A stretch of DNA of 64,000 nt from a virus (lineage: Duplodnaviria; Heunggongvirae; Uroviricota; Caudoviricetes): the IMG/VR virus record IMGVR_UViG_2740892441_000001; one strand, 5' to 3'. A program made the translations under genes and the position numbers. Below the pieces are notes generated by a model. The model ran no database searches and was not told the DNA's origin. It was given only the letters and a program-made list of their open reading frames with translations. Below are positions 37,215 to 54,462 of this stretch, in pieces. Numbering within the stretch: the first letter of the stretch is position 1; each line of letters starts with the position of its first letter.

Positions 37215-38105
37215 TTATGCCGGTAAAGCAATTTCTAACGGTTTATCCAAAGGTTGTTTGTCGAATGCCAGCAGTGGCAGCGTGTCAGGCAGTCGACGAC
37301 CAAAGTCAGGGTTTCGATACACACCATACAACGGAGACGTAAAGCTCAGGTTGTGAATGTCCTTGAGCAGCTTCACAATGCTGGCCTCGTCCACCAGACT
37401 GTCGGCAATGTCCTGAATCGTCGTGCCACGATTCCGCCCAGCTTTTGCCAGGGAACTGTTCTTGTGGTAGTCCGCCACCAGATCACGCAGTGCACGGCGA
37501 CGACGTGACTCGCTCATTGCGAACAACTCTTTGACGATCGCCTCGTTATCACCCGGGTCGGAGCGGAAATGGCGCTGGAACACACGCAGTGCACTTTCAT
37601 AGCTCTTCGGTCGCTCAGGGCGGATGAACTTGAACCCTGCTTTCATGGCGAAGGGATTGTATTTGCTCATCGAGGATTGGATCTCAATGATTGGCCGGTC
37701 ATGCATCCTGCTAACCAGGTTAATCATTCGATAAGAGACGCCTACGCCACGGTACTGAGTATCCACAACTGAGCGGCTGATCACCGCAAAGTTGTTATTC
37801 ACGTACCGGCCCCAGTACTGGTTAGCCACGGTGGTATTGGTGGTTGGTTTCAACTTAGGAAACATGCGATGGCGAGGTGCCAGCAGAAGTTTCGGGTAAG
37901 CCATAACCACGACGCCCACCAGACGGTCATCCAGTTCGCAGCGATAGTATGTTGGCGCGAAAGGTTTGCCGTCTGTTTTGTAGTGAAGCGACTTAAGAGC
38001 GTGCCAGTCCTCTACAGTTCCCTTTGTGACAGTCATTCGCTCCAGAAAGTCCAGATGACGCGGAAACTCTTCAGGGCGGTAGCGTTTAATGATGATGTCC
38101 GTCAT
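37215..38105 (-). CDS. GNAT-fold protein with C-terminal extension
   Basis: 296-aa ORF; GNAT-like motif VDTQYRGVGVSYRMI. Confidence 0.4.
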   Translation of the reverse strand: MTDIIIKRYRPEEFPRHLDFLERMTVTKGTVEDWHALKSLHYKTDGKPFAPTYYRCELDDRLVGVVVMAYPKLLLAPRHRMFPKLKPTTNTTVANQYWGRYVNNNFAVISRSVVDTQYRGVGVSYRMINLVSRMHDRPIIEIQSSMSKYNPFAMKAGFKFIRPERPKSYESALRVFQRHFRSDPGDNEAIVKELFAMSESRRRRALRDLVADYHKNSSLAKAGRNRGTTIQDIADSLVDEASIVKLLKDIHNLSFTSPLYGVYRNPDFGRRLPDTLPLLAFDKQPLDKPLEIALPA

Positions 38106-38767
38106 GAATGGACCTCATCATAACTACCATTGTGATATTCCACCTTCACGCGTTCTTTGTAGTGCTTGGTGATCTGCATATCCGGGCGCAGCGCGTTCTT
38201 CAGGTCTTCGTGAGTCGTCGCCACCATTACCGTCGCACCAACCTTTCGAGCGGCACGCTGGAGGTTAGATGCCACAACCTGAGCGGTTACACGGTCTAGA
38301 ACAGCACCGAACTCGTCAGCAGCCCACACTTTAGCGCCTGACTCAATCAGTTTGGCAATCTTGAGACGATATTTCTGACCGTCTGACATTTCAGAAGGCT
38401 TGCGAACAAACAGATATGCATCGTTCAGACCTGCCATAGATAACAACCCAAGCGCATCACTGGTAGTTTTGCCCAGTTGGTCAATGACGTTAACCTCATT
38501 ATCGAAGGTAAAGTCATCAATAGAAGCTACAGAAAGCCCTTCATCCTTCATCTGGCGTTGCAACTCGCGCAACACAACGGATTTACCTGAACCGGATTGG
38601 CCGGTGATGTACACCACATCGCCCTGCTTCACTTCCAGCTCCAGATTGTCGTAAAGCGTCCACTCTTTTTCGTCCAGGCCAAGCCCGAACGACTCAGCGA
38701 TTTCCAACGTGCGCGTGGTTTTATTTACGCGTGTCTGAAACGATACGTTGATGATGTATTTGCTCAT
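38102..38767 (-). CDS. ABC-type ATPase
   Basis: 221-aa ORF; Walker A GQSGSGKS, signature-like SDGQKYR, Walker B VWAADEF, H-loop TTHE. Confidence 0.6.
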   Translation of the reverse strand: MSKYIINVSFQTRVNKTTRTLEIAESFGLGLDEKEWTLYDNLELEVKQGDVVYITGQSGSGKSVVLRELQRQMKDEGLSVASIDDFTFDNEVNVIDQLGKTTSDALGLLSMAGLNDAYLFVRKPSEMSDGQKYRLKIAKLIESGAKVWAADEFGAVLDRVTAQVVASNLQRAARKVGATVMVATTHEDLKNALRPDMQITKHYKERVKVEYHNGSYDEVHS

Positions 38768-39465
38768 GCAGCCATCTCCCCGGAAGAGATCTTCTCCGCA
38801 TATGCCACAAATGCGTCTACCCCGCTTTCTCCCGTCATTTCTTCCATGTGGGCAAGCAAATCACCAACAACAATGGCAGAGCCAGCAGGGAGCGTTTTAA
38901 AGCCCAATACGTCGATAACACGTACTTCTTCCGCTGCAACTTCACGACTGATCTCGGTGTGTTCATCCTTCTGTCGTTTAGTTTCTTCGCCCAGATCGAT
39001 AACTAGCGAGTCGGTGTCCATTTCTTCTGTCATGCTGCCAACGAGAACATTCAACTCCCGCTCTTCAAAGCCGAAAACCTCGATATCGTCCAGAACAAGC
39101 GACTCAAGTTCTTTCTGTAGCTTAATTGCATCGTAATCAATGCTGGCAAGTCGGTTATCTTCAAGGCGCTTCGCACGAACCTCGTCATCACTGAGATCAT
39201 CGCGAACAATAACCGGTACGCGCTCAAGTCCAGCAAAAATTGCAGCCTCACGGCGGCCGTGGCCAGTAATAATTACGTCGTTCTTATCGACCGTAATTGG
39301 CTGGTCAAATCCGCGCTTTTTAATGGCTGCGGCCAGATCTCGGATCTGCTGTTCATCATGCTTTTTGGCATTCATCTCATAGGGAATAAGATCTGCCGGG
39401 TCGCGATATACGATTTCAAACTTTTTGGTCATTACATACACTCCTTGTAGTAGTCGACCAGCCAC
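38764..39465 (-). CDS. ParB/Srx-fold domain protein
   Basis: 233-aa ORF; ITGHGRREAA motif typical of ParB N-terminal domain. Confidence 0.5.
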   Translation of the reverse strand: MAGRLLQGVYVMTKKFEIVYRDPADLIPYEMNAKKHDEQQIRDLAAAIKKRGFDQPITVDKNDVIITGHGRREAAIFAGLERVPVIVRDDLSDDEVRAKRLEDNRLASIDYDAIKLQKELESLVLDDIEVFGFEERELNVLVGSMTEEMDTDSLVIDLGEETKRQKDEHTEISREVAAEEVRVIDVLGFKTLPAGSAIVVGDLLAHMEEMTGESGVDAFVAYAEKISSGEMAA

Positions 39466-40112
39466 ACCAGAGCCTCACCAGCGTTCTCCATTTCATTACC
39501 GGTGTTAATAGCCTGCTCTTTGATGATGTTTTTTATGGTTTCTGCAACACGATCTGACGCATCGAAAGTTACTTTGAAGCGCATGGTCTGATGTTCCGCA
39601 CCCACACGTTCGGTTTTCTCTCGTTTGTCGGTATCGACAGGCTCATCACTACCACGAGACAACGCCTCCAGTGCTTCAAGGTCGATTGCCGCCTCTTTTG
39701 CTAAAACCATCGAGATTTCGTCGTCATACGGGGCGATTTCAGACAGTTGATAGTCAAGTTCTGACTGAATTTCTTCAATGAAGCGTTGCAATGCGATTTG
39801 GTCGTCTTCACCGTATCGCTCGTTGTCCACTAGTGACATCTGTTTAGCTACGACATCGCTAATTTTGCCCACAGAAAGCACCGGAACCGTTGAAATTCCT
39901 TGCTCAATAGCAGCACGCCAGCGATGTTCGCCGCCGAGGATTTCAAAAAATCCATCTTCAAGTTCACGAGCCAAAATTGGCTTAAAAAAGCCCAATTTTT
40001 CGATAGAACCTTTCAGTTTTTCAAAATTCTGCGCACCAACCGAATTGGTGTTCCAGGTATTCGGGCGAAGGTTGGCAACATCAACCTGCAAAATCGTGAT
40101 TTTTACATCCAT
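39432..40112 (-). CDS. ParB/Srx-fold domain protein
   Basis: 226-aa ORF; ILGGEHRWRAA motif. Confidence 0.5.
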   Translation of the reverse strand: MDVKITILQVDVANLRPNTWNTNSVGAQNFEKLKGSIEKLGFFKPILARELEDGFFEILGGEHRWRAAIEQGISTVPVLSVGKISDVVAKQMSLVDNERYGEDDQIALQRFIEEIQSELDYQLSEIAPYDDEISMVLAKEAAIDLEALEALSRGSDEPVDTDKREKTERVGAEHQTMRFKVTFDASDRVAETIKNIIKEQAINTGNEMENAGEALVWLVDYYKECM

Positions 40113-42857: not shown

Positions 42858-43277
42858 ATGAAAGTAACAAACCTAATTATTCTGACACTAGCCACATCAC
42901 TAATTGGGTGTTCATCTTCATCTATATCTGTTTCAAAGGCAAAGTATGCGCCTCAAAGCAGAATATTTAAATATCAAACACCACATGAGTCTAGTCTAAC
43001 AATAGTTAGAGACAAAGGGCTGGTTGGTTCTGGATGTAACGCTTCCATATTCATCAATGGAGAAACGGCAGCAAAATTGGAACCTGGTGAAAAAGCAACT
43101 TTCTATCTTAATGAAGGAGATTGGATCGTTGGGACATCAATTGAAAGTTCAGGTCTTTGCGCATTTAACCCCTCTAGGATGGAGCGAGAAATAAAACTAA
43201 AGCAAGGCGACGCGAAAACATATCGGGTTTTCACTACCTGGGATGGTACAATGGATATATTGCCAACCACTTTATAA
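42858..43277 (+). CDS. lipoprotein
   Basis: 139-aa ORF; signal peptide with lipobox LIGC. Confidence 0.5.
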   Translation: MKVTNLIILTLATSLIGCSSSSISVSKAKYAPQSRIFKYQTPHESSLTIVRDKGLVGSGCNASIFINGETAAKLEPGEKATFYLNEGDWIVGTSIESSGLCAFNPSRMEREIKLKQGDAKTYRVFTTWDGTMDILPTTL

Positions 43278-43806
43278 TGATATGACGACGAAAGACATCA
43301 CCTACGGTGTGCCAGCAGAAGTCTGGCCTCGAGATTACACTAACGTTGAAAAACTACTGATGTTCTGGCGCAGAGAACAAATTCCTGTAAGGGCCACTCT
43401 AGAAGATGGCCAGGCGTTTTGCATGTACGTTTATGGCCTCATGCCATCTCGTAACAAAGTTGACCTTTGCCCAGCCCCTTTTGACAAAGAAAATCGTATA
43501 AGGCTCCCACTTGAACGCATTAGTACAATTGAATCAGGTGTGGTTGACAGTATCGCTCACGATTTCAAAGGTCGATTAACAGTTCACCCTGATTATGTCG
43601 ATAATCGGCCATCACGCCGCGATTTTTTTGCTATTTGCAACCAAGCCTATAAAGCAAACAAATCTATAAGGGTGTACATGGCGGATGGCCGTGAAATTGA
43701 GGGGGTGTCAGCAGGCGCAGATGCTTGTCAGGTTACACTACGTGTCGAGAACGGTAGAAAAATAGTTATTTTGTTCGATTGGGTTGAACGAATTTTGCCT
43801 TTTTGA
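43243..43806 (+). CDS. hypothetical protein
   Basis: 187-aa ORF; true start may be the internal Met about 40 nt downstream. Confidence 0.4.
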   Translation: MVQWIYCQPLYNDMTTKDITYGVPAEVWPRDYTNVEKLLMFWRREQIPVRATLEDGQAFCMYVYGLMPSRNKVDLCPAPFDKENRIRLPLERISTIESGVVDSIAHDFKGRLTVHPDYVDNRPSRRDFFAICNQAYKANKSIRVYMADGREIEGVSAGADACQVTLRVENGRKIVILFDWVERILPF

Positions 43807-44399: not shown

Positions 44400-45050
44400 A
44401 TGGCTAACATTATCATTTCTAAAAAATCCATCATTGAAGCTGCTTCCATTGTATCCGACGAGCTGCGCGAAAAAGCAGATCTGGCAACTCAAACATATAA
44501 CGAACATTATAAAAATGGTACGCACACTAAAGCAGACAAAGCAAATATGCAAGCTGCGACCACTAAACTTGCTTACTTCATCAACAACGTTGTAAACGCT
44601 GTTGAAGACGAAAAATTATGCTCTGTTTTCTACTATGCGATTAAAGCAAGCAAACAAGCGCCAGAAGTATTTTTCCGTGATGCAATGACTAATAGTTATT
44701 CACTGGAAAAACTGGTTTATCTGGTTAAATCTATTAAAGCTGGTAAATGCGTTTATTCCGTCGCTGATATGTCAGGATCTCGTGTATTCGCTTTAATCGA
44801 TATGATTAACGACGAGATCGACACGTTCACCAATGGCGCTGTTTTCGATTTAATGAATGAAGCTAAAAAAGCGTGTGAGATTAAATTGGACGCTGGCTAT
44901 ACTCAAGCCAACCAGTTGATCAATCTTTGCGAACGTCTCGGACTTGTTGAAAAAGTCAAAGGAGCTGGGAGCGCAAAAGCTGGTACTCAGCAATATCGCT
45001 TTATCAAGAATGATTTCTACAATTATCTAGCTGATGCTTTCAAAGCGTAA
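44400..45050 (+). CDS. hypothetical protein
   Basis: 216-aa ORF with good SD (AAGGAAAAA); followed by hairpin. Confidence 0.45.
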   Translation: MANIIISKKSIIEAASIVSDELREKADLATQTYNEHYKNGTHTKADKANMQAATTKLAYFINNVVNAVEDEKLCSVFYYAIKASKQAPEVFFRDAMTNSYSLEKLVYLVKSIKAGKCVYSVADMSGSRVFALIDMINDEIDTFTNGAVFDLMNEAKKACEIKLDAGYTQANQLINLCERLGLVEKVKGAGSAKAGTQQYRFIKNDFYNYLADAFKA

Positions 45051-45554: not shown

Positions 45555-45579
45555 AGCGCCCACTATGGGCGCTTTTTTC
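45555..45579 (+). terminator. rho-independent terminator
   Basis: Hairpin agcgcccactatgggcgct plus T6; same hairpin also at about 45063-45081. Confidence 0.6.
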
Positions 45580-45600
45580 GTTTCCAATACTCCCACCATA

Positions 45601-45627
45601 ACGCGCCATCATTGGCGCGTTTTTTAT
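45601..45627 (+). terminator. rho-independent terminator
   Basis: Hairpin acgcgccatcattggcgcgt plus T6. Confidence 0.55.
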
Positions 45628-45984
45628 TGTCTTTAACTCACTCCAACAACATAAAAATAAGCGCCAAAATAACGCCATAGACGCGATTTTATATCCTCGC
45701 CAGTACATACCCATTACTTAACACATTAACGCGCTTAAAACGCGTTATATTGCGCTATAGAGTATGGTTAATCGTTGGCTTTTAGTCTTGCTTTATGATC
45801 CGCGTTTATTTGTCGGCGCGGATCGGCATTTTGTTTTGTTCCGTATCCGCTCGCGTATTATGTGCGCGTGATTTTTCACATAATCACACCACTTAATCAC
45901 GTATGTGATTATGCTACGAAAGAAATCTGGATGTCTCAGGCGACGAAAGTCATCATAATTTTCCCCGCTCACCTGTCCGACAAC

Positions 45985-46160
45985 CGCTGGTTGGATTCAA
46001 CCAGCTTCCCGATGTTTTTTCTATATAAAGGCGAATGCAGCCGTTTCCCGAAAAAATCCTGGCCGTTTCCCGTCGGCTCATGAATGCGTTCCTCGCCGTT
46101 TCTGAAAATTTCCCTGCGGCAGCTGGTGGCTATAGAGAAAGGGCCGTTTCTGGCCCTCTT
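45985..46160. repeat. iteron-like array (GCCGTTTCC units)
   Basis: About five direct copies: cagccgtttcccgaaaa, ggccgtttcccgtcgg, cgccgtttctgaaaa, gggccgtttctggccc. Confidence 0.55.
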
Positions 46161-46165
46161 CTCAG

Positions 46166-46648
46166 TTACACGCCATCAAGGATGTGGATGCGGTTGCTTG
46201 CGTATACATTCAGCATAAAGTTAGCGCAAAACAGTTTCCATGTATCAACGCCAGCGGTATACGTAATGTTTTTGCATTTAATCGCATTGTTGGCGATCCG
46301 CATCCCCTGCGATACTGCTTCATCGTCGGAAAATTTGAACGACGATTGAGTTTTAATCCAGACAGAAATCTGCGTAGCGAACTCAATCAGCTTGGACTGG
46401 CAGAATCGCCCGGAGCGCACCGGAAAGACGAACGTTCCGAATCCAGAATTTACCACATACGCTTTCTCAAATACCCGCGAGTAACGACGATTGCCAATGA
46501 TGTCGCGTGCAATAATGCATTTTTCTTGTGCTGACAGTTCTACCGTCTCATTGTCGCGCCATGCACCAAGTACTCGTTTTTCAATGTCAGAGAACGTTAC
46601 AGCGATATTGCCATGTGCGGGTGCGTTTACAGTAGCGATAAAATTCAT
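46166..46648 (-). CDS. hypothetical protein
   Basis: 160-aa ORF preceded by conserved promoter-like motif. Confidence 0.45.
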   Translation of the reverse strand: MNFIATVNAPAHGNIAVTFSDIEKRVLGAWRDNETVELSAQEKCIIARDIIGNRRYSRVFEKAYVVNSGFGTFVFPVRSGRFCQSKLIEFATQISVWIKTQSSFKFSDDEAVSQGMRIANNAIKCKNITYTAGVDTWKLFCANFMLNVYASNRIHILDGV

Positions 46649-46669
46649 GATTATTTCCTTATCGTAAAT

Positions 46670-46702
46670 AACAAATTGTTTTCTTGTTGGTGTTAATTAT
46701 CG
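46670..46702 (-). promoter_or_regulatory. conserved early promoter/operator motif
   Basis: aacaaattgttttcttgttggtgttaattatcg, one of at least 9 near-identical copies upstream of minus-strand genes. Confidence 0.5.
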
Positions 46703-46735
46703 TTGTACGAATAAGGCGTCAAAGTGGAAAGTTGC

Positions 46736-46826
46736 GGTAGCCGGACGGGAACAGGTGGGTTTTTCGGTTGCCTGGAGGTAAGAGGTTGGTGTTTTTAGCC
46801 TGCGGGAAACAGGATGGTCATTTAAG
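46736..46826. repeat. three direct ~30-bp repeats
   Basis: tagccggacgggaacaggtgggttttt / ggttgcctggaggtaagaggttggtgttttt / agcctgcgggaaacaggatggtcattt. Confidence 0.45.
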
Positions 46827-46852
46827 GCCACCAATGCTGGTGGCCTTAGTCT

Positions 46853-47134
46853 TTAGTGGAGCAGACCGATGTCGATGGTATCCCCTGAATCCCCCACACG
46901 GATCATCAGCATGGCGAAGGCGTTTAGTGGATAACTGGCGTGCCATTCAGGGAAGCGGTCATCTCGCATGAAGTCGGCAATGTCGTAAACGCAGCCCTCA
47001 AAGTGGAAGAATCGCGTGCTTACCTGCTCGTCATATTCCACATGATCCATTTCTTGCTGTTCTGTTTCCGGCAAGTCCAGCCATGATTCAAGGAATACAT
47101 TTTGTGCTTTAGGGGTAATGGTGAAATCAGTCAT
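46853..47134 (-). CDS. hypothetical protein
   Basis: Start moved to MTDFTITPK (AGGA SD). Confidence 0.4.
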   Translation of the reverse strand: MTDFTITPKAQNVFLESWLDLPETEQQEMDHVEYDEQVSTRFFHFEGCVYDIADFMRDDRFPEWHASYPLNAFAMLMIRVGDSGDTIDIGLLH

Positions 47135-47154
47135 GAGCATATCCTCACTGCGTA

Positions 47155-47186
47155 AACATATTGTTTTCTTGTTGGTGTAATTATCG
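47155..47186 (-). promoter_or_regulatory. conserved early promoter/operator motif
   Basis: acatattgttttcttgttggtgtaattatcgc. Confidence 0.45.
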
Positions 47187-47326
47187 CAGTGTAGATAAGG
47201 CATAAAAGAAGTTAATACAGGCTGAATACACAAGAAAGGTTCTGGAAGTTGATAGCCAGGTTTCAAACTAACCTTCGGTTATTAAAAGTCATTTAAGACC
47301 ACCAATGCTGGTGGCCTTAATAATTA

Positions 47327-47862
47327 TCGCCCGATTACGCTAAGGATCTTTTCCTCAACTGATTTGTTGTTGCGACTAAACTGCCTTGCGTATCTGATGA
47401 CAGAAGAGGCGTTTTGCTTTCTGACCATCTCGGCTCTTTCCTTCAGGCGTTTCTTGAAATCGCCCATATTTACCACCAGGCGCAGAACGTCAGTCTGTTA
47501 TTGTGAAAGTCGTAATTATTAATCAGCTCTTCTACAAGTGCTTTCAACTCCCCCACGTCACGCCAGTAATCTTCGTCATAATCCATGCTGCCAAAGTAAA
47601 AACCTCCAGTCGGCTCGAACTCATCCTGAGTAGGCAGAAGGGCTTCGCAATTACTCTCGTTGAGACGAATCAGAGTAGCCTTTAGAGCGCAAAGATCATT
47701 CTTTGTAATTTCTAAAAATTTAAAACTATCAACTTTGCCTACGTTCCGATTCACCCACCCAACAAGCGCATTAAACTTATAAAAATAGCCTACTTCCTTT
47801 CTGGCTGCTTCGTTATTCAGATCGTTTTTTGGCTGCGTCTCGATATAGATATCAAGTCCCAT
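47327..47862 (-). pseudogene. hypothetical protein, frame interrupted near 47470-47500
   Basis: 130-aa ORF 47470-47862 is followed by a 47-codon ORF in another frame that stays open across the stop; one added base gives a continuous ~176-aa frame. Confidence 0.35.
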
Positions 47863-47947
47863 GATGGTTTCCTTATTAAGTATTAAGTTGCTTCAGTGAA
47901 AGCATTTTCACAAATCAGATAAGGCAGAAAACAAATTATTATCGGGC

Positions 47948-47977
47948 ATAAGAAAATGGCGCGGTTTACGCGCCATT
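47948..47977 (-). terminator. rho-independent terminator
   Basis: Hairpin aaatggcgcg..cgcgccattt followed by T-rich tract on minus strand. Confidence 0.5.
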
Positions 47978-47986
47978 TAAAGAGGA

Positions 47987-48382
47987 TTAAGCGAATACGC
48001 TTTCAGGGATTAAGGTATCAGCAGGAATGCCGGATGTAATACGCAGACCGTACTGGCCAATCCAGGTGGTGCTGGTGTTCAGGCTGGAGGCGAATACGGA
48101 ATTAACCATATTCATCATGGTTTCAAACACCTCTTCATCAACCTGGCGGAAGTAGTTCTCGATTTTCAGCAGCAGCGGGTCAGTTGCATCGAGAATGGAC
48201 TGGTATTGAGTCGCGTACTCGCCGCCGGAGGCATCACCTTTACGCACGATCGTACTGGCCTGTACTTCGGCACCAGTTTCGGTGTTGTACGTAACAACGG
48301 TGATTTTTGCCACATTCTTACCTTCGGCGGTTTCAGAGGCATAGTAAACATCAACTGTCAGTTTTTCGCGTTTAACGGTCAT
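47987..48382 (-). CDS. hypothetical protein
   Basis: Start moved to MTVKREK (GGAGAG SD). Confidence 0.45.
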   Translation of the reverse strand: MTVKREKLTVDVYYASETAEGKNVAKITVVTYNTETGAEVQASTIVRKGDASGGEYATQYQSILDATDPLLLKIENYFRQVDEEVFETMMNMVNSVFASSLNTSTTWIGQYGLRITSGIPADTLIPESVFA

Positions 48383-48442
48383 TTCACTCTCCGTAGTGTA
48401 TTGGTTATTTTTATATTCTATGATCGTAAGTATGTACTTACA

Positions 48443-48474
48443 AAACAAAAAAGCCCCGTAAGGATGGCGGGGCT
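48443..48474 (-). terminator. rho-independent terminator
   Basis: Hairpin agccccg..cggggct followed by T-run on minus strand. Confidence 0.55.
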
Positions 48475-48508
48475 GTCGTACTGTCGACTAATTACCACTT
48501 GCACATTA

Positions 48509-48820
48509 TCAGGCTATTGCCATCACTGATGCTCTCTGAATCTCTTGCTGGGCCACGCGGTTAACTTCCATCAAAGCCAGTTCGAGCTGATGTTCCGGCC
48601 ACATTCTTTGAAACGCCATCCAGCCTTTTCCACGCTGGCGGCGAACATTCATTACATAACGAGTAAAGGTGTTTTTATCGAAAGACACCGCTGTTTCACG
48701 GAACAGACGAATAGAGGTTCCATTGGCAACGATGTCCAGCAAAGTTAATTGAGCAACCAGCGCAGGCTTCTCTTTTCTCTTCTGGTCTTTGTCCAGACCA
48801 AGAACCAATGATTTTTTCAT
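48509..48820 (-). CDS. hypothetical protein
   Basis: Start moved to MKKSLVLG (GGAG SD). Confidence 0.4.
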   Translation of the reverse strand: MKKSLVLGLDKDQKRKEKPALVAQLTLLDIVANGTSIRLFRETAVSFDKNTFTRYVMNVRRQRGKGWMAFQRMWPEHQLELALMEVNRVAQQEIQRASVMAIA

Positions 48821-48832
48821 CACAACTCCGTA

Positions 48833-48870
48833 AACAACTTGTTTTCTCAATGGCGTAAATAATACCAGTA
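48833..48870 (-). promoter_or_regulatory. conserved early promoter/operator motif
   Basis: aacaacttgttttctcaatggcgtaaataatacc. Confidence 0.45.
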
Positions 48871-48973
48871 AGAAAACGGCTACAAAGCATATTGATCAGG
48901 TGCATGAGCGATATGCAGGTTCTTCCCTGCGGCTATAGAGAAATTAAGCCAGCAATGCTGGCTTTGGTTGGGG

Positions 48974-49303
48974 TTACTCGAATACTTCAAGAAACTCCTG
49001 AACGTCCCAATGCTGGACGAGGTGAAGATAGACCTTAGAAATCACGTCATTTTCGCTATCGCATGTGAAGTAGTACTTCTGGCTGCGGTTGTATGTGTCC
49101 ACACAAAATTCGCTCATATCCATAAAGTCAGCATCTTCACCCATGTCGCAAATCATCAAAGCAGGTGCGTCATCACGAGTCATCAGCTCAAGCACCCACC
49201 GCGAATTGATCAGAGTGGAAGACCAACCTTCTAACTCATAAAACTGATCAAACTCTTTTTGAGTTAATTTCTTGATTTGGTTGATGTCGATATTTGCAAA
49301 CAT
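48974..49303 (-). CDS. hypothetical acidic protein
   Basis: 109-aa ORF preceded by conserved motif at about 49317-49350. Confidence 0.45.
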   Translation of the reverse strand: MFANIDINQIKKLTQKEFDQFYELEGWSSTLINSRWVLELMTRDDAPALMICDMGEDADFMDMSEFCVDTYNRSQKYYFTCDSENDVISKVYLHLVQHWDVQEFLEVFE

Positions 49304-49659: not shown

Positions 49660-49805
49660 GTACGCCGCCGTTCCTGAACCGGCATCGAGCCTTTTCCCGA
49701 AATCCACACAGGCAACTCGACCGTTTCCCTGAAAACCTCCAGCCGTTCCCCGAAGGCAACCCAGCCGTTTCTGTAGCGGGATGCAGCCTTTTCCCTGTAT
49801 GGACC
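49660..49805. repeat. iteron-like array (CCGTTTCC / CCTTTTCC units, six copies at ~20-30 bp spacing)
   Basis: gccgttcctgaacc, gccttttcccgaaatcc, accgtttccctgaaaacc, agccgttccccgaagg, agccgtttctgtagcgg, gccttttccctgtatgg. Confidence 0.55.
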
Positions 49806-50399
49806 GAAGGCTGACCGTAGGGGTGTTACGGGGGATAAAATCAGTAGTTGAATAAATACGAAAAAGGAGGCGACACCCCTCCTTCCCTCCCCACTTATAC
49901 ATACCTGGCTTCTTCGCTATGCATGTTGTGTTTTCTTCGTGTTTTATCTGTTTCAACCTCTCTATAGGCGTTAATGCTCACTCCTTCCAGAACGTTCTAT
50001 ACGGCAACTATTTCTGTTGGTGAATTGGGTGTGTTGTTTTCTCTGTCGGTGTATGTGGTTTCGTTCGTTTTGCGGTGGTTCTTCTATAGGGTGTTCTCGT
50101 CGTTTTGGTGATTGTTCTTCTCCGTCTATGGAGTAATGGCAGGTGGGCGATTCCTTTCGTTATTGTGTTTGAGTTGTTTGTCTGGAGTGCGTGAAGGGCT
50201 TTTGTAGTTATTCGTGTATTGGGTAATGGCGTTTCCCGTGATTGTTCTGTTTCGTGTCTTTTGGGATTGAAGAATCCTTGCGGTAACAGGCTTCGTTGGG
50301 GTTTCAGTGATTCTGGTGTTTCTTCGCTGTTTGGGTAATGGCGTGTCGTGGGTATCGCGCGTATGAATGTTTTCGGATTGCCTGTGAAAGTTAGGTTGG

Positions 50400-50465
50400 T
50401 TGTCCGGTAGCCTGGGAAGAAGAGGTGGGTCTTTTCGGTAGCCTGCCATAAAGAGGTTGGTTGTT
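50400..50465. repeat. direct repeat pair in GT-skewed noncoding tract
   Basis: cggtagcctgggaagaagaggtgggtctttt / cggtagcctgccataaagaggttggttgttttt. Confidence 0.45.
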
Positions 50466-50866
50466 TTTGGGAATGGCATATGCGTTATTTAGTTGTTTTG
50501 TTATGCCTGAAAATAAGTTGTTTATATGGTTATGTAACGCAACGGGAACGATTTTGAGCGTGTGTTTTTGTTGGTAGTGTGTTGGGTCGTCTGTGGTGAA
50601 AATTGGACGCTGTGGCGCTGTCTGCTGCGTAGGATTGCGGGTATAAGAAGTAATGTGTGAAAACGTCAATTTTTTAGACCAAATCGGGTGAAAGCGTTGA
50701 CGTTTCGTTGATCTGTTATTCAGTTGTTTTCTTGTTTGTATAAACAACTATAACCTATTGATATTTAAGGGTGTGATTGCAGGTATGGAAGGGGAGTAGT
50801 GGCGATCAACGGATTCTTATAGAAAAGAATCAAATTGTGACCGCCATTATCAATAAGTTGCAACCG

Positions 50867-52271: not shown

Positions 52272-54305
52272 TTACTTAACCTGGTGGCCAGGTTTAGCAC
52301 CAGCATCCGGGCTTAACAGGAAGATGTCTTTCCCGCCGGGGCCAGCAGCCATCACCATGCCTTCGGAGATACCGAAACGCATTTTACGCGGAGCCAGGTT
52401 AGCCACCATAATGGTGTGACGGCCAATCAGTGCCTGTGGGTCTGGATAAGCGGAACGGATGCCTGAGAAGACATTGCGTTTTTCACCGCCGAGATCCAGC
52501 GTCAGGCGCAGCAGTTTGTCAGAACCTTCAACAAAGTCTGCGTTTTCGATCAGCGCCACGCGCAGGTCAACTTTGGCAAAGTCGTCAAAGGTGATGGTTT
52601 CCTGAATCGGGTCGTCTGCCAGCGGGCCAGTAACTGGCGCGGCAGTAGCTTTCACTTCTTCTTTAGACGCTTCCACCAATGCTTCCACCTGTTTCATGTC
52701 GATACGGTTATACAGTGCTTTGAACGGATTCACTTTATGGCCCAGCAGCGGTTGCTGGATACCATCCCAGGTCAGTTCTGTATTCAGGAATGCTTCTGCA
52801 CGTTCAGTCAGTTTCGGCAGTACCGGCTTCAGGTACGTCATCAGCACGCGGAACAGGTTAATGCCCATAGAGCAAATCGCCTGCAGATCGGCATCGCGTC
52901 CTTCCTGCTTCGCCACCACCCACGGAGCCTGTTCATCGACATAGCGGTTAGCCAGGTCAGCCAATGCCATGATTTCACGGATAGCTTTACCAAATTCGCG
53001 GCTTTCCCATGCTTCGCCAATCACTTCAGCGGCATCAGTAAAGGTTTTGTACAGTTGCGAGTCAGCCAGTTCGCTTGCCAGCACGCCGTCAAAACGCTTG
53101 TTGATAAAGCCTGCATTACGGGAGGCCAGGTTAACCACTTTGTTCACGATATCGGCATTCACGCGCTGAACGAAATCCTCCAGGTTGAGATCGATATCAT
53201 CAATGCGCGAAGAGAGTTTCGCAGTGTAGTAGTAACGCAGGCTGTCGGCGTCAAAATGATTCATCCAGGTGCTGGCTTTAATAAAGGTGCCGCGAGACTT
53301 GGACATCTTCGCGCCGTTCACCGTCACATAGCCGTGAACAAACAGGTTGGTCGGCTTGCGGAAGTTGCTGCCTTCCAGCATGGCAGGCCAGAACAGGCTG
53401 TGGAAGTAAACGATATCTTTACCGATGAAGTGGTACAGCTCGGCGGTGGAGTCTTTCTTCCAGTATTCATCGAAGCTGGTAGTGTCGCCGCGCTTGTCGC
53501 ACAGATTCTTGAAGGAACCCATGTAGCCAATCGGTGCGTCCAGCCAGACGTAGAAATATTTACCCGGCGCGTTCGGAATTTCAAAACCGAAGTAAGGTGC
53601 GTCGCGGGAGATATCCCACTGTTGCAGACCAGATTCAAACCACTCCTGCATTTTGTTTGCCACCTGCTCCTGCAACGCACCGCTGCGGGTCCATGCCTGC
53701 AACATTTCGCTGAAAGAGGGCAGATCAAAGAAGAAGTGTTCAGAATCACGCATTACCGGCGTAGCGCCAGAAACTACCGATTTCGGCTCAATCAGTTCAG
53801 TCGGGCTGTAGGTCGCGCCGCAAACTTCACAGTTATCGCCGTATTGATCTGGCGCTTTACATTTCGGACAGGTGCCTTTCACAAAACGATCCGGCAGGAA
53901 CATGCCTTTTTCCGGGTCGTACAACTGAGAGATAGTGCGGTTTTTAATAAAACCGTTCTCTTTCAGGCGAGTATAGATAAGCTCAGACAGCTGGCGGTTC
54001 TCTTCGCTGTGCGTCGAGTGATAGTTGTCATAGCTGATGTTAAAGCCTGCGAAATCAGTCTGGTGTTCCTGGCTCATTTCGCCAATCATCTGTTCCGGTG
54101 TGATACCAAGCTGCTGTGCTTTCAGCATGATCGGCGTACCGTGGGCATCGTCGGCGCAGATGAAGTTGACCTCGTGGCCGCGCATTCGCTGGTAACGGAC
54201 CCAGACATCAGCCTGGATGTGCTCCAGCATATGGCCGAGGTGGATTGAGCCGTTAGCGTACGGCAGCGCGCACGTCACCAGAATTTTCTTCGCGACTTGG
54301 GTCAT
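52272..54305 (-). CDS. metG: methionine--tRNA ligase
   Basis: 677-aa protein from [25 protein letters not shown] (HLGH, KMSKS motifs, C-terminal tRNA-binding domain); matches E. coli MetG as I recall it; the 43-codon N-terminal extension in the ORF track is rejected. Confidence 0.95.
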
Positions 54306-54462
54306 AGTAGGCATTACTTCTTTGTAGTGAAAAGGGGCTTGATAGTAACAAAATGGCCTTATGTCTGCCATGTGATAACAGCATTTCTCATAAATGATTA
54401 AATGTCGTAGCTGGAGTACACTACAAGGCGACAATTGCGCAAATTAAAATAAAGGAGACGGG

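What the first reader, a model, noticed from the sequence alone, without database searches (positions are those of the whole stretch)
49660..49805. Second iteron-like array (six CCGTTTCC / CCTTTTCC units) 3.5 kb from the first
Same unit as at 45985-46160; the two arrays bracket the block of small minus-strand genes 46166-49303. Paired iteron arrays are typical of iteron-controlled replicons, but no initiator gene is evident between them.
Basis: seen in the sequence. Interest (0 to 1): 0.5.

Follow-up and report, generated by a model that had tools for sequence, protein, structure and literature searches.

The report
Conserved phased protein-binding repeats in phage-plasmid
The six repeats are real: they are a non-coding, strongly conserved array of evenly spaced docking sites for an unidentified DNA-binding protein in a widespread family of plasmid-like phages (SSU5/pHCM2/pMT1), distinct from the plasmid's known replication repeats and so far undescribed.

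Summary
Observation confirmed. Six same-strand copies of CYRGCCKTTTCCCKRAA start at 49667, 49689, 49720, 49742, 49764 and 49786 (spacing 22/31/22/22/22). A partner array lies at 46040/46062/95. No other site in the window or in a 114-kb relative reaches the units' scores.

The window is an E. coli SSU5/pHCM2-type phage-plasmid.

- **Conservation.** Both arrays, their strand and their phasing recur in Salmonella, Klebsiella, Enterobacter and Cronobacter elements and 77 viral contigs. pMT1 keeps array 1; Serratia-type elements keep 1-2 units per site. Motif cores are more conserved than spacers.
- **Not coding, not a structured RNA.**
- **Not the plasmid's iterons.** RepA is about 35 kb away with unrelated repeats.
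- **Setting.** Each array follows a hairpin ending a minus-strand transcription unit. Together they bracket a variable block of small early genes (1.5-4.5 kb). Array 2 abuts a conserved AT-rich/GC-palindrome element and a 0.85-kb A/C-rich untranslated tract.
- **Candidate binder.** A conserved coiled-coil plus winged-helix protein is encoded beside array 1.

Best reading (about 0.35): a second, lytic-phase origin or origin enhancer (λ ori, P4 ori/crr, R6K style). The near-equal rival (about 0.3) is a boundary or silencing complex for the early block. That these are cis-acting protein-binding sites is about 0.85.

I found no description in the literature searched. Interest is moderate.

The parts
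49664..49805 (+). Array 2: six phased units of CYRGCCKTTTCCCKRAA. Cores start at 49667, 49689, 49720, 49742, 49764 and 49786.
   Evidence: Sequence. PWM scores 17.2-25.5. Spacing 22/31/22/22/22 is reproduced in pHCM2 and most of 77 viral contigs. Cores are more conserved than spacers: 0.84 against 0.69, p = 5e-6.
49806..49835 (+). Conserved GC-rich linker (GGCTGACCGTAGGGGTGTTACGGGGG).
   Evidence: Nearly invariant columns in the 5-genus alignment and in 69 distinct sequences.
49836..49866 (+). Conserved 31-bp AT-rich element (ATAAAATCAGTAGTTGAATAAATACGAAAAA). It also forms the T-rich tail of the minus-strand hairpin.
   Evidence: TTGAATAAAT(A/G)CG is kept even in the Serratia-type element.
49861..49887 (-). 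GC-rich hairpin or palindrome: a terminator-like end of the upstream non-coding transcription unit.
   Evidence: Terminator scan. Folding gives -18.5 kcal/mol, z = -2.9. The hairpin is not supported by covariation across genera.
49900..50750 (-). Untranslated tract of about 0.85 kb, A/C-rich on the minus strand and G/T-rich on the plus strand. It starts at a promoter/leader of the early type (50724-50745).
   Evidence: GC skew +0.4 to +0.5 and AT skew -0.5 to -0.6. The composition is conserved in relatives although the sequence is not. Leader match. RefSeq annotates no CDS here.
46037..46110 (+). Array 1: three units with cores at 46040, 46062 and 46095, spaced 22 and 33 bp.
   Evidence: Conserved in seven genera including Yersinia pMT1. 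Spacing 22 then 33/34 in 77 contigs.
46122..46129 (+). Chi site (GCTGGTGG) embedded beside array 1.
   Evidence: Conserved in 5 of 7 genera in alignment A5.
46140..46160 (-). Hairpin terminator of the 160-aa gene. Its loop and stem contain a fourth motif copy (GGGCC-AGAAAC-GGCCC followed by TTTCTCT).
   Evidence: Sequence. Folding gives -19.3 kcal/mol, z = -3.4. Relatives carry a compensatory change to GGGGC/GCCCC.
45556..45870 (+). Run of tandem plus-strand hairpin terminators. They insulate array 1 from the convergent + strand genes.
   Evidence: The first hairpin, AGCGCCCACTATGGGCGCTTTTTT, is invariant in 7 genera.
46166..49303 (-). Variable block of small early-type genes. Each has its own conserved promoter/leader and a hairpin terminator. 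The two arrays bracket this block.
   Evidence: The distance between arrays ranges from 1,484 to 4,489 bp across 67 relatives.
44400..45050 (+). Candidate array-binding protein: 216 aa, with an N-terminal long-helix hairpin and a C-terminal winged-helix domain. This role is inferred, not shown.
   Evidence: AlphaFold2 mean pLDDT 81. Foldseek best matches are winged-helix DNA binders (Orc1/Cdc6 WH, RTP, TubR, MukE/F, PadR), with E 0.015-0.5 and probability up to 0.99. The gene is syntenic with the module in all lineages, including the Serratia type.

Best explanation
Array 2 is a cis-acting DNA element. It consists of six copies of an asymmetric recognition site of about 15 bp, set two helical turns apart so that a sequence-specific protein can bind cooperatively along one face of the helix.

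The leading candidate binder is the conserved coiled-coil plus winged-helix protein encoded at 44400-45050. A host factor is not excluded.

Array 2 and the smaller array 1 are the only such sites in the phage-plasmid of about 110 kb. They are unrelated to the RepA/IncFIB plasmid replicon.

The role I commit to is replication. Array 2, its conserved 31-bp AT-rich element and the GC palindrome would form the initiator-binding part of a second, lytic-phase origin. That origin would be used by the element's own replisome (DnaB-like helicase, primase, DnaE, ligase, RNase H, UvsW). The strong early, untranslated transcript that ends exactly at the element would activate or prime it. Array 1 would act as a distal partner or enhancer by looping, as crr does for P4 ori and the gamma iterons do for R6K alpha/beta.

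**Shown:** the arrays, their phasing, uniqueness, conservation, non-coding nature and transcriptional setting.

**Inferred:** protein binding, the identity of the binder, and the origin function. Confidence of 0.35 applies to the origin role. The underlying claim of a protein-binding cis-element I put at about 0.85.
For: - **Iteron-like anatomy.** Four to six direct repeats at 22-bp spacing with one 31-34-bp step. The spacing is kept across genera while the spacers diverge.
- **Selection on the cores.** Core positions are more conserved than spacers: 0.84 against 0.69, p = 5e-6.
- **Uniqueness.** No site outside the two clusters reaches the units' scores in 114 kb.
- **Not coding.**
- **Not a structured or known RNA.**
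- **λ-ori-like layout to the right of array 2.** Repeats, then a conserved 31-bp stretch that is 77% AT, then a GC palindrome. The λ layout is from established knowledge.
- **Insulated from transcription.** Hairpins and terminators sit on every side from which transcription arrives.
- **An early untranslated transcription unit ends at the element**.
- **A full phage replisome with no known lytic origin.** The element also carries RNase H and a UvsW-type helicase. Its only annotated origin, RepA, has different iterons 35 kb away.
- **A conserved neighbour gene encodes a winged-helix protein.** Its nearest structural matches include the origin-binding Orc1/Cdc6 WH domain.
- **pMT1 has lost array 2 and the tract but persists as a plasmid.** So array 2 is not needed for plasmid maintenance.
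- **The motif is unchanged where a flanking protein is only 28% identical.** This implies a slowly evolving binder.
Against: - No initiator gene contains or adjoins the arrays, unlike λ O, P22 gp18, SPP1 G38P or RepA.
- There is no conserved DnaA box and no GATC cluster. The only AT-rich stretch is 31 bp and doubles as a terminator tail.
- Serratia-type relatives carry only 1-2 units per site. That fits an operator or boundary site better than an iteron origin.
- Array 1 has no AT-rich/palindrome partner.
- The transcript next to array 2 is G-poor, which is not what favours stable R-loops.
- All winged-helix fold matches are statistically weak (best E = 0.015).
- No experimental or coverage data were available.
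Confidence: 0.35

Rival explanations
1. Boundary or regulatory complex. The arrays are operator-like loading sites at the two 3' boundaries of the hypervariable early-gene block. A bound protein would silence or insulate the block in the plasmid-prophage state. It could do so by looping array 1 to array 2. Alternatively it could act as a polar roadblock that reinforces termination or stops head-on replication forks, as Tus/RTP-Ter or the rDNA Sal-box/RFB arrays do.
For: - Both arrays lie immediately after hairpins that end minus-strand transcription units. They share one orientation relative to transcription.
- They bracket the block whatever its length, from 1.5 to 4.5 kb.
- The block carries several strong-looking promoters that would need control.
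- One or two units suffice in Serratia-type elements.
- The neighbouring winged-helix protein matches RTP with probability 0.99 but E = 0.1.
Against: - The units do not overlap any predicted promoter.
- Promoters of the same type lie outside the bracket, at 50724, 60250 and 8190.
- The conserved orientation follows trivially from synteny.
- I know of no bacterial precedent for repeat arrays used as terminator or fork barriers in phages.
Confidence: 0.3
2. Partition centromere. The arrays would be dispersed centromere sites, as in N15 or pSM19035. The partner would be the element's type Ib ParA (7483-8151) with its RHH protein (7124-7483), or the two orphan ParB_N proteins.
For: - Arrays of direct repeats insulated from transcription are typical of centromeres.
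- A ParA/RHH cassette and two ParB_N genes are present.
Against: - There is no unit near the par operon, where type Ib systems autoregulate through the same repeats (PWM scan).
- The par cassette has its own conserved AT-rich palindrome.
- Serratia-type elements have the same RHH beta-strand but only 1-2 units per site.
- ParB proteins normally read palindromes.
Confidence: 0.07
3. Packaging signal. The units would be terminase small-subunit binding sites like cosB R sites or SPP1 pac boxes. The GC-rich GGCGAC element would be a cosN-like site.
For: - There are repeats, an IHF-like AT-rich site, and a GC-rich element that resembles the λ cohesive end GGGCGGCGACCT (the λ sequence is from memory).
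Against: - The terminase genes are 13 kb away.
- TerL matches Terminase_6N and the portal is SPP1-type, which suggests headful packaging.
- None of eight phage records starts or ends here.
- A second array has no role in this model.
Confidence: 0.04
4. RNA-level repeats. These would be a protein sponge or a 3'-UTR element in read-through transcripts, for example CsrB-like GGA motifs or a ToxI-like antitoxin.
For: - On the minus strand most units read (C/U)AGGGAAA or GGGGAAC.
- An FljA-like RNA-binding protein is encoded nearby.
Against: - Both arrays lie after terminators.
- GGA is not the invariant part of the motif.
- There is no Rfam match.
- Neither strand folds better than shuffled sequence (z = -1.7 and +1.0).
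- Array 1 sits between convergent terminators.
Confidence: 0.04
5. No function: chance repeats, a decayed duplication, or part of an unannotated gene.
For: - GC-rich sequence leaves several stop-free frames.
- Phage annotators have called small ORFs here (SSU5_109, CYRAN_104).
Against: - The clustering and phasing are far beyond chance.
- The arrays are conserved across at least 7 genera, with cores better kept than spacers.
- The ORFs are not conserved in frame or extent.
Confidence: 0.02

Closest known systems
Iterons of theta-replicating plasmids and prophage plasmids (P1 incC/incA, F, R6K gamma with distal alpha/beta, RK2)
   Same: Direct repeats with a 22-bp register, 3-7 copies. There are two clusters kb apart that could interact by looping or handcuffing. 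Both lie in non-coding, transcription-insulated settings.
   Different: No Rep gene lies between or beside them. The conserved core is only about 13 bp. There are no DnaA boxes. The element's real RepA iterons are a different sequence elsewhere.
Phage lytic origins built on repeats: λ ori (four iterons, AT-rich region, palindrome), P4 ori plus crr (the same octamer in two clusters 4.5 kb apart), SPP1 oriL/oriR, T4 oriE iterons
   Same: The repeat / AT-rich / palindrome order to the right of array 2. A second cluster of the same motif lies 3.6 kb away. The location is in the early region next to strong early transcription. The host element carries its own helicase and primase.
   Different: The array is not inside or next to an identifiable initiator gene. 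The AT-rich stretch is only 31 bp. Function is untested.
Polar terminator and fork-barrier arrays (Tus-Ter, B. subtilis RTP-Ter, eukaryotic rDNA Sal-box/TTF-I and Fob1 RFB)
   Same: Oriented protein-binding repeats placed at the 3' ends of heavily transcribed units. A neighbouring winged-helix protein has RTP among its best fold matches.
   Different: No barrier activity has been shown. The fold match is weak. No such system is known in phages.
T4-type hyperplastic regions with promoter-early stem-loop (PeSL) cassettes
   Same: The bracketed block consists of small genes of unknown function. Each has a near-identical early promoter/leader and a stem-loop, and gene content varies between relatives.
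   Different: This describes the cargo between the arrays, not the arrays themselves. T4 has no flanking repeat arrays.

Membership tests
Iteron-controlled plasmid replicon (RepA/pi/TrfA type) | Tandem direct repeats of 17-22 bp in a register of about 22 bp | tested here: met
   Spacing 22/31/22/22/22 in the window. 22 bp accounts for 137 of 220 array-2 steps in 77 relatives. The conserved core is only about 13 bp.
Iteron-controlled plasmid replicon (RepA/pi/TrfA type) | Cognate initiator (Rep) gene adjacent to or between the arrays | tested here: not met
   All genes between the arrays are small PHROGs of unknown function. The 160-aa protein has no fold match. RepA is about 35 kb away.
Iteron-controlled plasmid replicon (RepA/pi/TrfA type) | Repeats match the iterons recognised by the element's Rep | tested here: not met
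   The RepA iteron PWM scores real iterons 19.5-31.2. Its best match in the window is 13.0, and that is not in the arrays.
Iteron-controlled plasmid replicon (RepA/pi/TrfA type) | Adjacent AT-rich unwinding element and DnaA box(es) | tested here: inconclusive
   There is a conserved 31-bp stretch that is 77% AT, 35 bp from the last unit. There is no conserved DnaA box and no GATC cluster.
Iteron-controlled plasmid replicon (RepA/pi/TrfA type) | The fragment supports autonomous or helper-dependent replication | not testable with these tools
   Needs cloning or marker-frequency experiments.
Phage lytic origin of the λ / P4 / SPP1 kind | Initiator-binding repeats followed by an AT-rich region (λ: plus a palindrome) | tested here: met
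   Array 2 (49664-49805), AT-rich element (49836-49866), GC palindrome (49861-49887). The sequence is conserved across genera.
Phage lytic origin of the λ / P4 / SPP1 kind | Origin lies within or beside the initiator gene; an identifiable origin-binding protein exists | tested here: not met
   No such gene is nearby. The 249-aa protein upstream of the helicase gene has no Pfam match and contains no units. The winged-helix neighbour is only a candidate.
Phage lytic origin of the λ / P4 / SPP1 kind | Second distal cluster of the same repeat (P4 crr, SPP1 oriR) | tested here: met
   Array 1 lies 3.6 kb away in the same orientation. Among relatives the distance is 1.5-4.5 kb.
Type Ib/II partition centromere (parC, parH, parS of pSM19035) | Repeat array adjacent to, and autoregulating, the parA-CBP operon | tested here: not met
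   The ParA/RHH cassette is at 7124-8151. No units lie within 38 kb of it.
λ-type OL/OR operator pairs | Dyad-symmetric operators overlapping promoters | tested here: not met
   The units are asymmetric direct repeats, and no predicted promoter overlaps them.
Transposon or Mu/Tn7-type end arrays | Arrays in inverted orientation at the ends of a mobile segment, with a transposase | tested here: not met
   Both arrays are on the same strand. They occupy the same locus in all relatives, and there is no transposase.
CsrB/Rsm-type or ToxI-type repeat RNAs | Transcribed repeat array with invariant GGA loops, or perfect 36-nt repeats followed by a toxin gene | tested here: not met
   No Rfam match. 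GGA is not invariant. There is no excess folding. The arrays lie after terminators.

The most novel reading that the evidence does not exclude
The whole conserved module may be a previously undescribed kind of phage system bound by a new winged-helix protein family. The module is an early promoter, an untranslated A/C-rich RNA of about 0.9 kb, a conserved AT-rich/GC element and a phased repeat array, with a partner array on the far side of a hypervariable early-gene block. It could be an RNA-activated, iteron-assisted lytic origin with a distal enhancer. Or it could be a bacterial counterpart of rDNA Sal-box/RFB polar barriers that fences off an accessory-gene hotspot.
Probability: 0.15. Interest if true: 0.8.

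Novelty: new variant of a known kind. Interest (0 to 1): 0.55.

Why it matters
SSU5/pHCM2/pMT1-type phage-plasmids are among the commonest large non-conjugative plasmids in clinical E. coli, Klebsiella, Enterobacter and Salmonella. More than 700 PLSDB records carry this locus. Some carry resistance genes. Apart from the RepA replicon, their cis-acting control elements are uncharted.

A unique, deeply conserved pair of protein-binding arrays gives a concrete handle on one of two open questions. The first is where and how these elements switch to lytic replication. The second is how they fence and control the fast-evolving early gene block, which probably holds host-takeover or anti-defence genes.

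The arrays also give a motif, a candidate binding protein and an odd non-coding transcript, all of which can be tested directly.

Tried and rejected
- **RepA iterons.** Extracted from the 96%-identical plasmid. Unrelated, and absent from the window.
- **Coding repeat.** Rejected. The 22-bp period cycles through all three frames, indels do not preserve a frame, and RefSeq calls no CDS.
- **Known RNA family or structured RNA.** No Rfam match and no excess folding. The hairpin right of array 2 is stable in E. coli but not supported by covariation.
- **Centromere of the ParA/RHH cassette.** No units near the cassette, which has its own palindrome.
- **cos/pac site.** Terminase genes are 13 kb away, the portal and terminase are of headful type, and no phage record has an end here.
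- **Transposon ends, CRISPR, ToxI-like array.** Orientation, period and gene context are wrong.
- **Classical origin marks.** No conserved DnaA box, IHF site or GATC cluster.
- **Genome-wide scan with two 8-mers 22 bp apart.** Too unspecific. It returned chance hits in unrelated phyla, and the scan was wasted.
- **Literature.** Searches on SSU5, pHCM2, phage-plasmid plus iteron/origin/partition, and on the motif itself, found nothing about this locus. One 2026 preprint on an SSU5-type copy-number mechanism was listed by a search but could not be opened.

Full report
**1. What the window is**

The 4.5 kb around the finding matches 243 complete E. coli genomes at about 96% identity. Every match is on a plasmid. 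It also matches 721 PLSDB plasmids, of which 692 are typed non-mobilizable. They come mostly from Klebsiella, Escherichia, Enterobacter, Yersinia and Salmonella. Phage matches include Cyrano and, at lower identity, SSU5.

Annotation of the closest record, NZ_AP027904.1 (114,243 bp), shows a tailed-phage structural module. It also carries its own replisome genes: DnaB-like helicase, primase, DnaE, ligase, RNase H and a UvsW-type helicase. There are nrdAB, td, metG and tRNAs, plus a RepA replicon at coordinate 1. The window is therefore part of an SSU5/pHCM2/pMT1-type phage-plasmid. The metG next to the finding belongs to the element, not to a chromosome.

**2.

Array 2 has six same-strand units at 49667, 49689, 49720, 49742, 49764 and 49786, spaced 22/31/22/22/22 bp. 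Array 1 has units at 46040, 46062 and 46095, plus a copy inside a hairpin at 46143.

A loose pattern finds 29 matches on both strands of 64 kb. Ten of them lie in these two clusters, all on the + strand. A weight matrix scores the units 17-25. Nothing else in the window or in the entire 114-kb relative exceeds 15, and shuffles give 0-1 hits at 16 or above. The pooled consensus from relatives is CYRGCCKTTTCCCKRAA.

**3. The arrays are conserved and under selection as repeats**

Both arrays occur at the same places and on the same strand in Salmonella pHCM2 and SSU5, Klebsiella, Enterobacter and Cronobacter elements. They also occur in a divergent K. quasipneumoniae element.

In pHCM2 the spacing is again 22/31/22/22/22. 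Across 77 viral contigs, array-2 steps were:

| Step (bp) | Count |
|---|---|
| 22 | 137 |
| 31 | 42 |
| 44 (one weak unit skipped) | 34 |
| other | 7 |

Array-1 steps are 22, then 33/34, then 48.

In 69 distinct array-2 sequences the 11 core positions of each unit are more conserved than the spacers. Mean majority frequency is 0.84 against 0.69 (Mann-Whitney p = 5e-6). This contrast is made within one alignment, so relatedness does not explain it.

A Serratia-type element is the most telling case. There the neighbouring 158-aa protein is only 28% identical to its E. coli counterpart. Yet a perfect unit, TTTTCGGGAAACGGCCAG, still follows that gene, and 1-2 units follow the non-coding tract.

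Yersinia pMT1 keeps array 1. It has lost array 2 and the adjoining tract through an IS1541-associated deletion.

**4. What the arrays are not**

- **Not coding.** A 22-bp period moves successive units through all three frames. Alignments contain 1-nt and 37-nt indels. Stop-free frames differ between relatives. In the 'spread' sample of 40 rows listed from the 717 matching plasmid records, only one shows an annotated feature under the match.
- **Not a known or structured RNA.** There is no Rfam match. Folding z-scores are -1.7 and +1.0 for the two strands.
- **Not the plasmid replicon's iterons.** RepA is about 35 kb away and outside the window. It is flanked by about 20 copies of A[A/T]CCACT[A/G]TAGAGAG. 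A matrix of those copies finds nothing in the window: best 13.0 against 19.5-31.2 for real iterons.
- **Probably not the centromere.** The element has an unannotated type Ib partition cassette: a ParA/MinD-type ATPase at 7483-8151 and a 119-aa RHH-like partner at 7124-7483. No unit lies near the cassette, which has its own conserved AT-rich palindrome.
- **Not a transposon end, CRISPR or ToxI-like array.** Orientation, period and gene context are wrong.
- **Unlikely to be a packaging site.** The terminase genes are 13 kb away. The TerL and portal are of headful type. No phage record ends here.

**5. Anatomy of the neighbourhood**

All genes from 46166 to 49303 are small, on the minus strand and of unknown function. 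Each has a near-identical promoter/leader of about 55 nt (GATAAT...AACACCAACAAGAAAACA) and most have hairpin terminators. Gene content between the arrays varies, so the arrays are 1,484-4,489 bp apart in 67 relatives. This resembles the hyperplastic early regions of T4-type phages.

Each array lies just downstream, in the direction of transcription, of a hairpin that ends a minus-strand unit:

| Array | Hairpin | Energy | z-score |
|---|---|---|---|
| Array 2 | 49887-49861 | -18.5 kcal/mol | -2.9 |
| Array 1 | 46160-46140 | -19.3 kcal/mol | -3.4 |

The array-1 hairpin has a compensatory stem change in relatives. On its other side, array 1 is shielded by three to five tandem plus-strand terminators, the first invariant in seven genera.

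The unit that ends at array 2 is a non-coding tract of about 0.85 kb (49900-50750). It has extreme strand composition: the minus strand is A 39%, C 29%, G 16%, T 17%. It starts at a leader of the early type. Its composition is conserved across genera, but its sequence is not.

Between the last unit and the hairpin lie the best-conserved 90 bp of the locus. They include a 31-bp element that is 77% AT, ATAAAATCAGTAGTTGAATAAATACGAAAAA. The hairpin itself is not supported by covariation. This suggests the region is conserved as DNA sequence.

No conserved DnaA box, IHF consensus or GATC cluster is present.

**6. Candidate binder**

The conserved 216-aa protein at 44400-45050 (PHROG 1513, no Pfam match) lies beside array 1 in all E. 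coli-type relatives. In Serratia-type elements it lies next to the block on the other strand.

**7. Interpretation**

I put the claim that these are cis-acting sites for a sequence-specific DNA-binding protein at about 0.85. For the role, two readings are close.

*(a) A second, lytic-phase origin or origin enhancer (0.35).* In its favour:
- The repeats have iteron anatomy.
- The repeat / AT-rich / palindrome order to the right of array 2 resembles λ ori.
- There is a distal partner cluster, as with P4 ori/crr, SPP1 oriL/oriR or R6K gamma with alpha/beta.
- The arrays sit in the early region, where a strong untranslated transcript ends. This recalls the transcriptional activation or priming seen at λ, T4, T7 and ColE1 origins.
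- The element has a complete replisome but no known lytic origin.
- pMT1 survives as a plasmid without array 2.

Against it:
- There is no adjoining initiator gene.
- The AT-rich stretch is short and there is no DnaA box.
- Serratia-type elements carry only 1-2 units per site.

*(b) A boundary or silencing complex, or polar roadblock, for the early block (0.30).* This fits the position after terminators. It also fits the bracket around variable cargo and the sufficiency of one or two sites. But the units overlap no promoter, and similar promoters lie outside the bracket.

Centromere, packaging, RNA-level and no-function readings are each at or below 0.07.

**8. Novelty**

No paper in the searchable library links SSU5-type phage-plasmids with iterons, and none describes this locus or motif. 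The element has a familiar form, phased protein-binding repeats, in an unfamiliar arrangement:
- it is paired across a hypervariable early block;
- it has no initiator gene beside it;
- it is coupled to a compositionally extreme non-coding transcript.

I rate it a new variant of a known kind, of moderate interest.

Noticed in passing
window 49900-50750: Non-coding tract of about 850 bp with extreme strand bias: + strand G+T is about 69%, GC skew +0.4 to +0.5, AT skew -0.5 to -0.6. Composition, not sequence, is conserved in Salmonella, Klebsiella, Enterobacter, Cronobacter and Serratia relatives. It reads as an untranslated A/C-rich, G-poor minus-strand RNA running from an early-type leader (50724-50745) to the hairpin at 49887-49861. 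It would be an ideal Rho-loading substrate. Its function is unknown.
   Followed up: partly
window 46166-49303, with leader copies at 46676, 47161, 48840, 49323, 50724, 60250 and about 8190: Small minus-strand genes of unknown function. Each has a near-identical promoter/leader of about 55 nt (GATAAT...AACACCAACAAGAAAACA), and most have a stem-loop terminator. Gene content varies among relatives (1.5-4.5 kb). This resembles the promoter-early stem-loop cassettes of T4 hyperplastic regions.
   Followed up: partly
window 46122, 46836, 47307, 49465 (+ strand); 15 sites in the whole window: Chi (GCTGGTGG) occurs 15 times against 1.6 expected. Four + strand copies cluster in the finding's region. 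One lies beside array 1 and is conserved in 5 of 7 genera. Two lie in terminator stems. Elsewhere in the window most copies are on the - strand.
   Followed up: partly
window 7124-8151 (-) and 7038-7094: Type Ib partition cassette, unannotated as such. It has a ParA/MinD/MipZ-type ATPase (222 aa) and a 119-aa partner with a ribbon-helix-helix-like motif (SRTMSLEDEYFELLEMM...RSDVIRAAIFHL). RefSeq calls them 'AAA family ATPase' and 'hypothetical'. An AT-rich palindrome downstream is conserved in a Serratia element and may be its centromere.
   Followed up: partly
window 43243-43806 (+): FljA-like protein (Pfam Flag1_repress, E = 1e-83, with a weak Hfq-like tail), conserved in relatives. FljA is a post-transcriptional repressor of flagellin, so this may be a host-directed or RNA-binding function of the phage-plasmid.
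   Followed up: no
window 45556-45870 (+): Three to five tandem hairpin terminators after the + strand operon. The first (AGCGCCCACTATGGGCGCTTTTTT) is invariant in seven genera. This is unusually heavy insulation of the pocket that holds array 1.
   Followed up: partly
window 38764-40112 (-) and 37215-38767 (-): Two ParB_N-domain proteins (233 and 226 aa), an ABC-type ATPase and a 296-aa protein form an operon just upstream of the terminase genes. No ParA is associated with them. The operon is conserved in pMT1 and Serratia-type elements. Its role is unknown.
   Followed up: no
window 50405-50414 and 50436-50445 (+): Two copies of CGGTAGCCTG lie 31 bp apart inside the tract. They resemble the core of the RfaH ops element (GGCGGTAGnnTG), but on the strand not predicted to be the non-template strand. 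This is possibly coincidence.
   Followed up: no
window 52272-54434 (-) and the adjacent apbC: A full-length metG (methionyl-tRNA synthetase) and apbC are carried by the phage-plasmid itself, along with tRNA genes elsewhere in relatives. They are not a chromosomal junction.
   Followed up: yes
L212 (Serratia-type 110-kb contig) against the window: In Serratia-type relatives the winged-helix gene is co-directional with the early block, whereas in E. coli-type elements it is convergent. This implies an inversion with a breakpoint next to array 1.
   Followed up: partly
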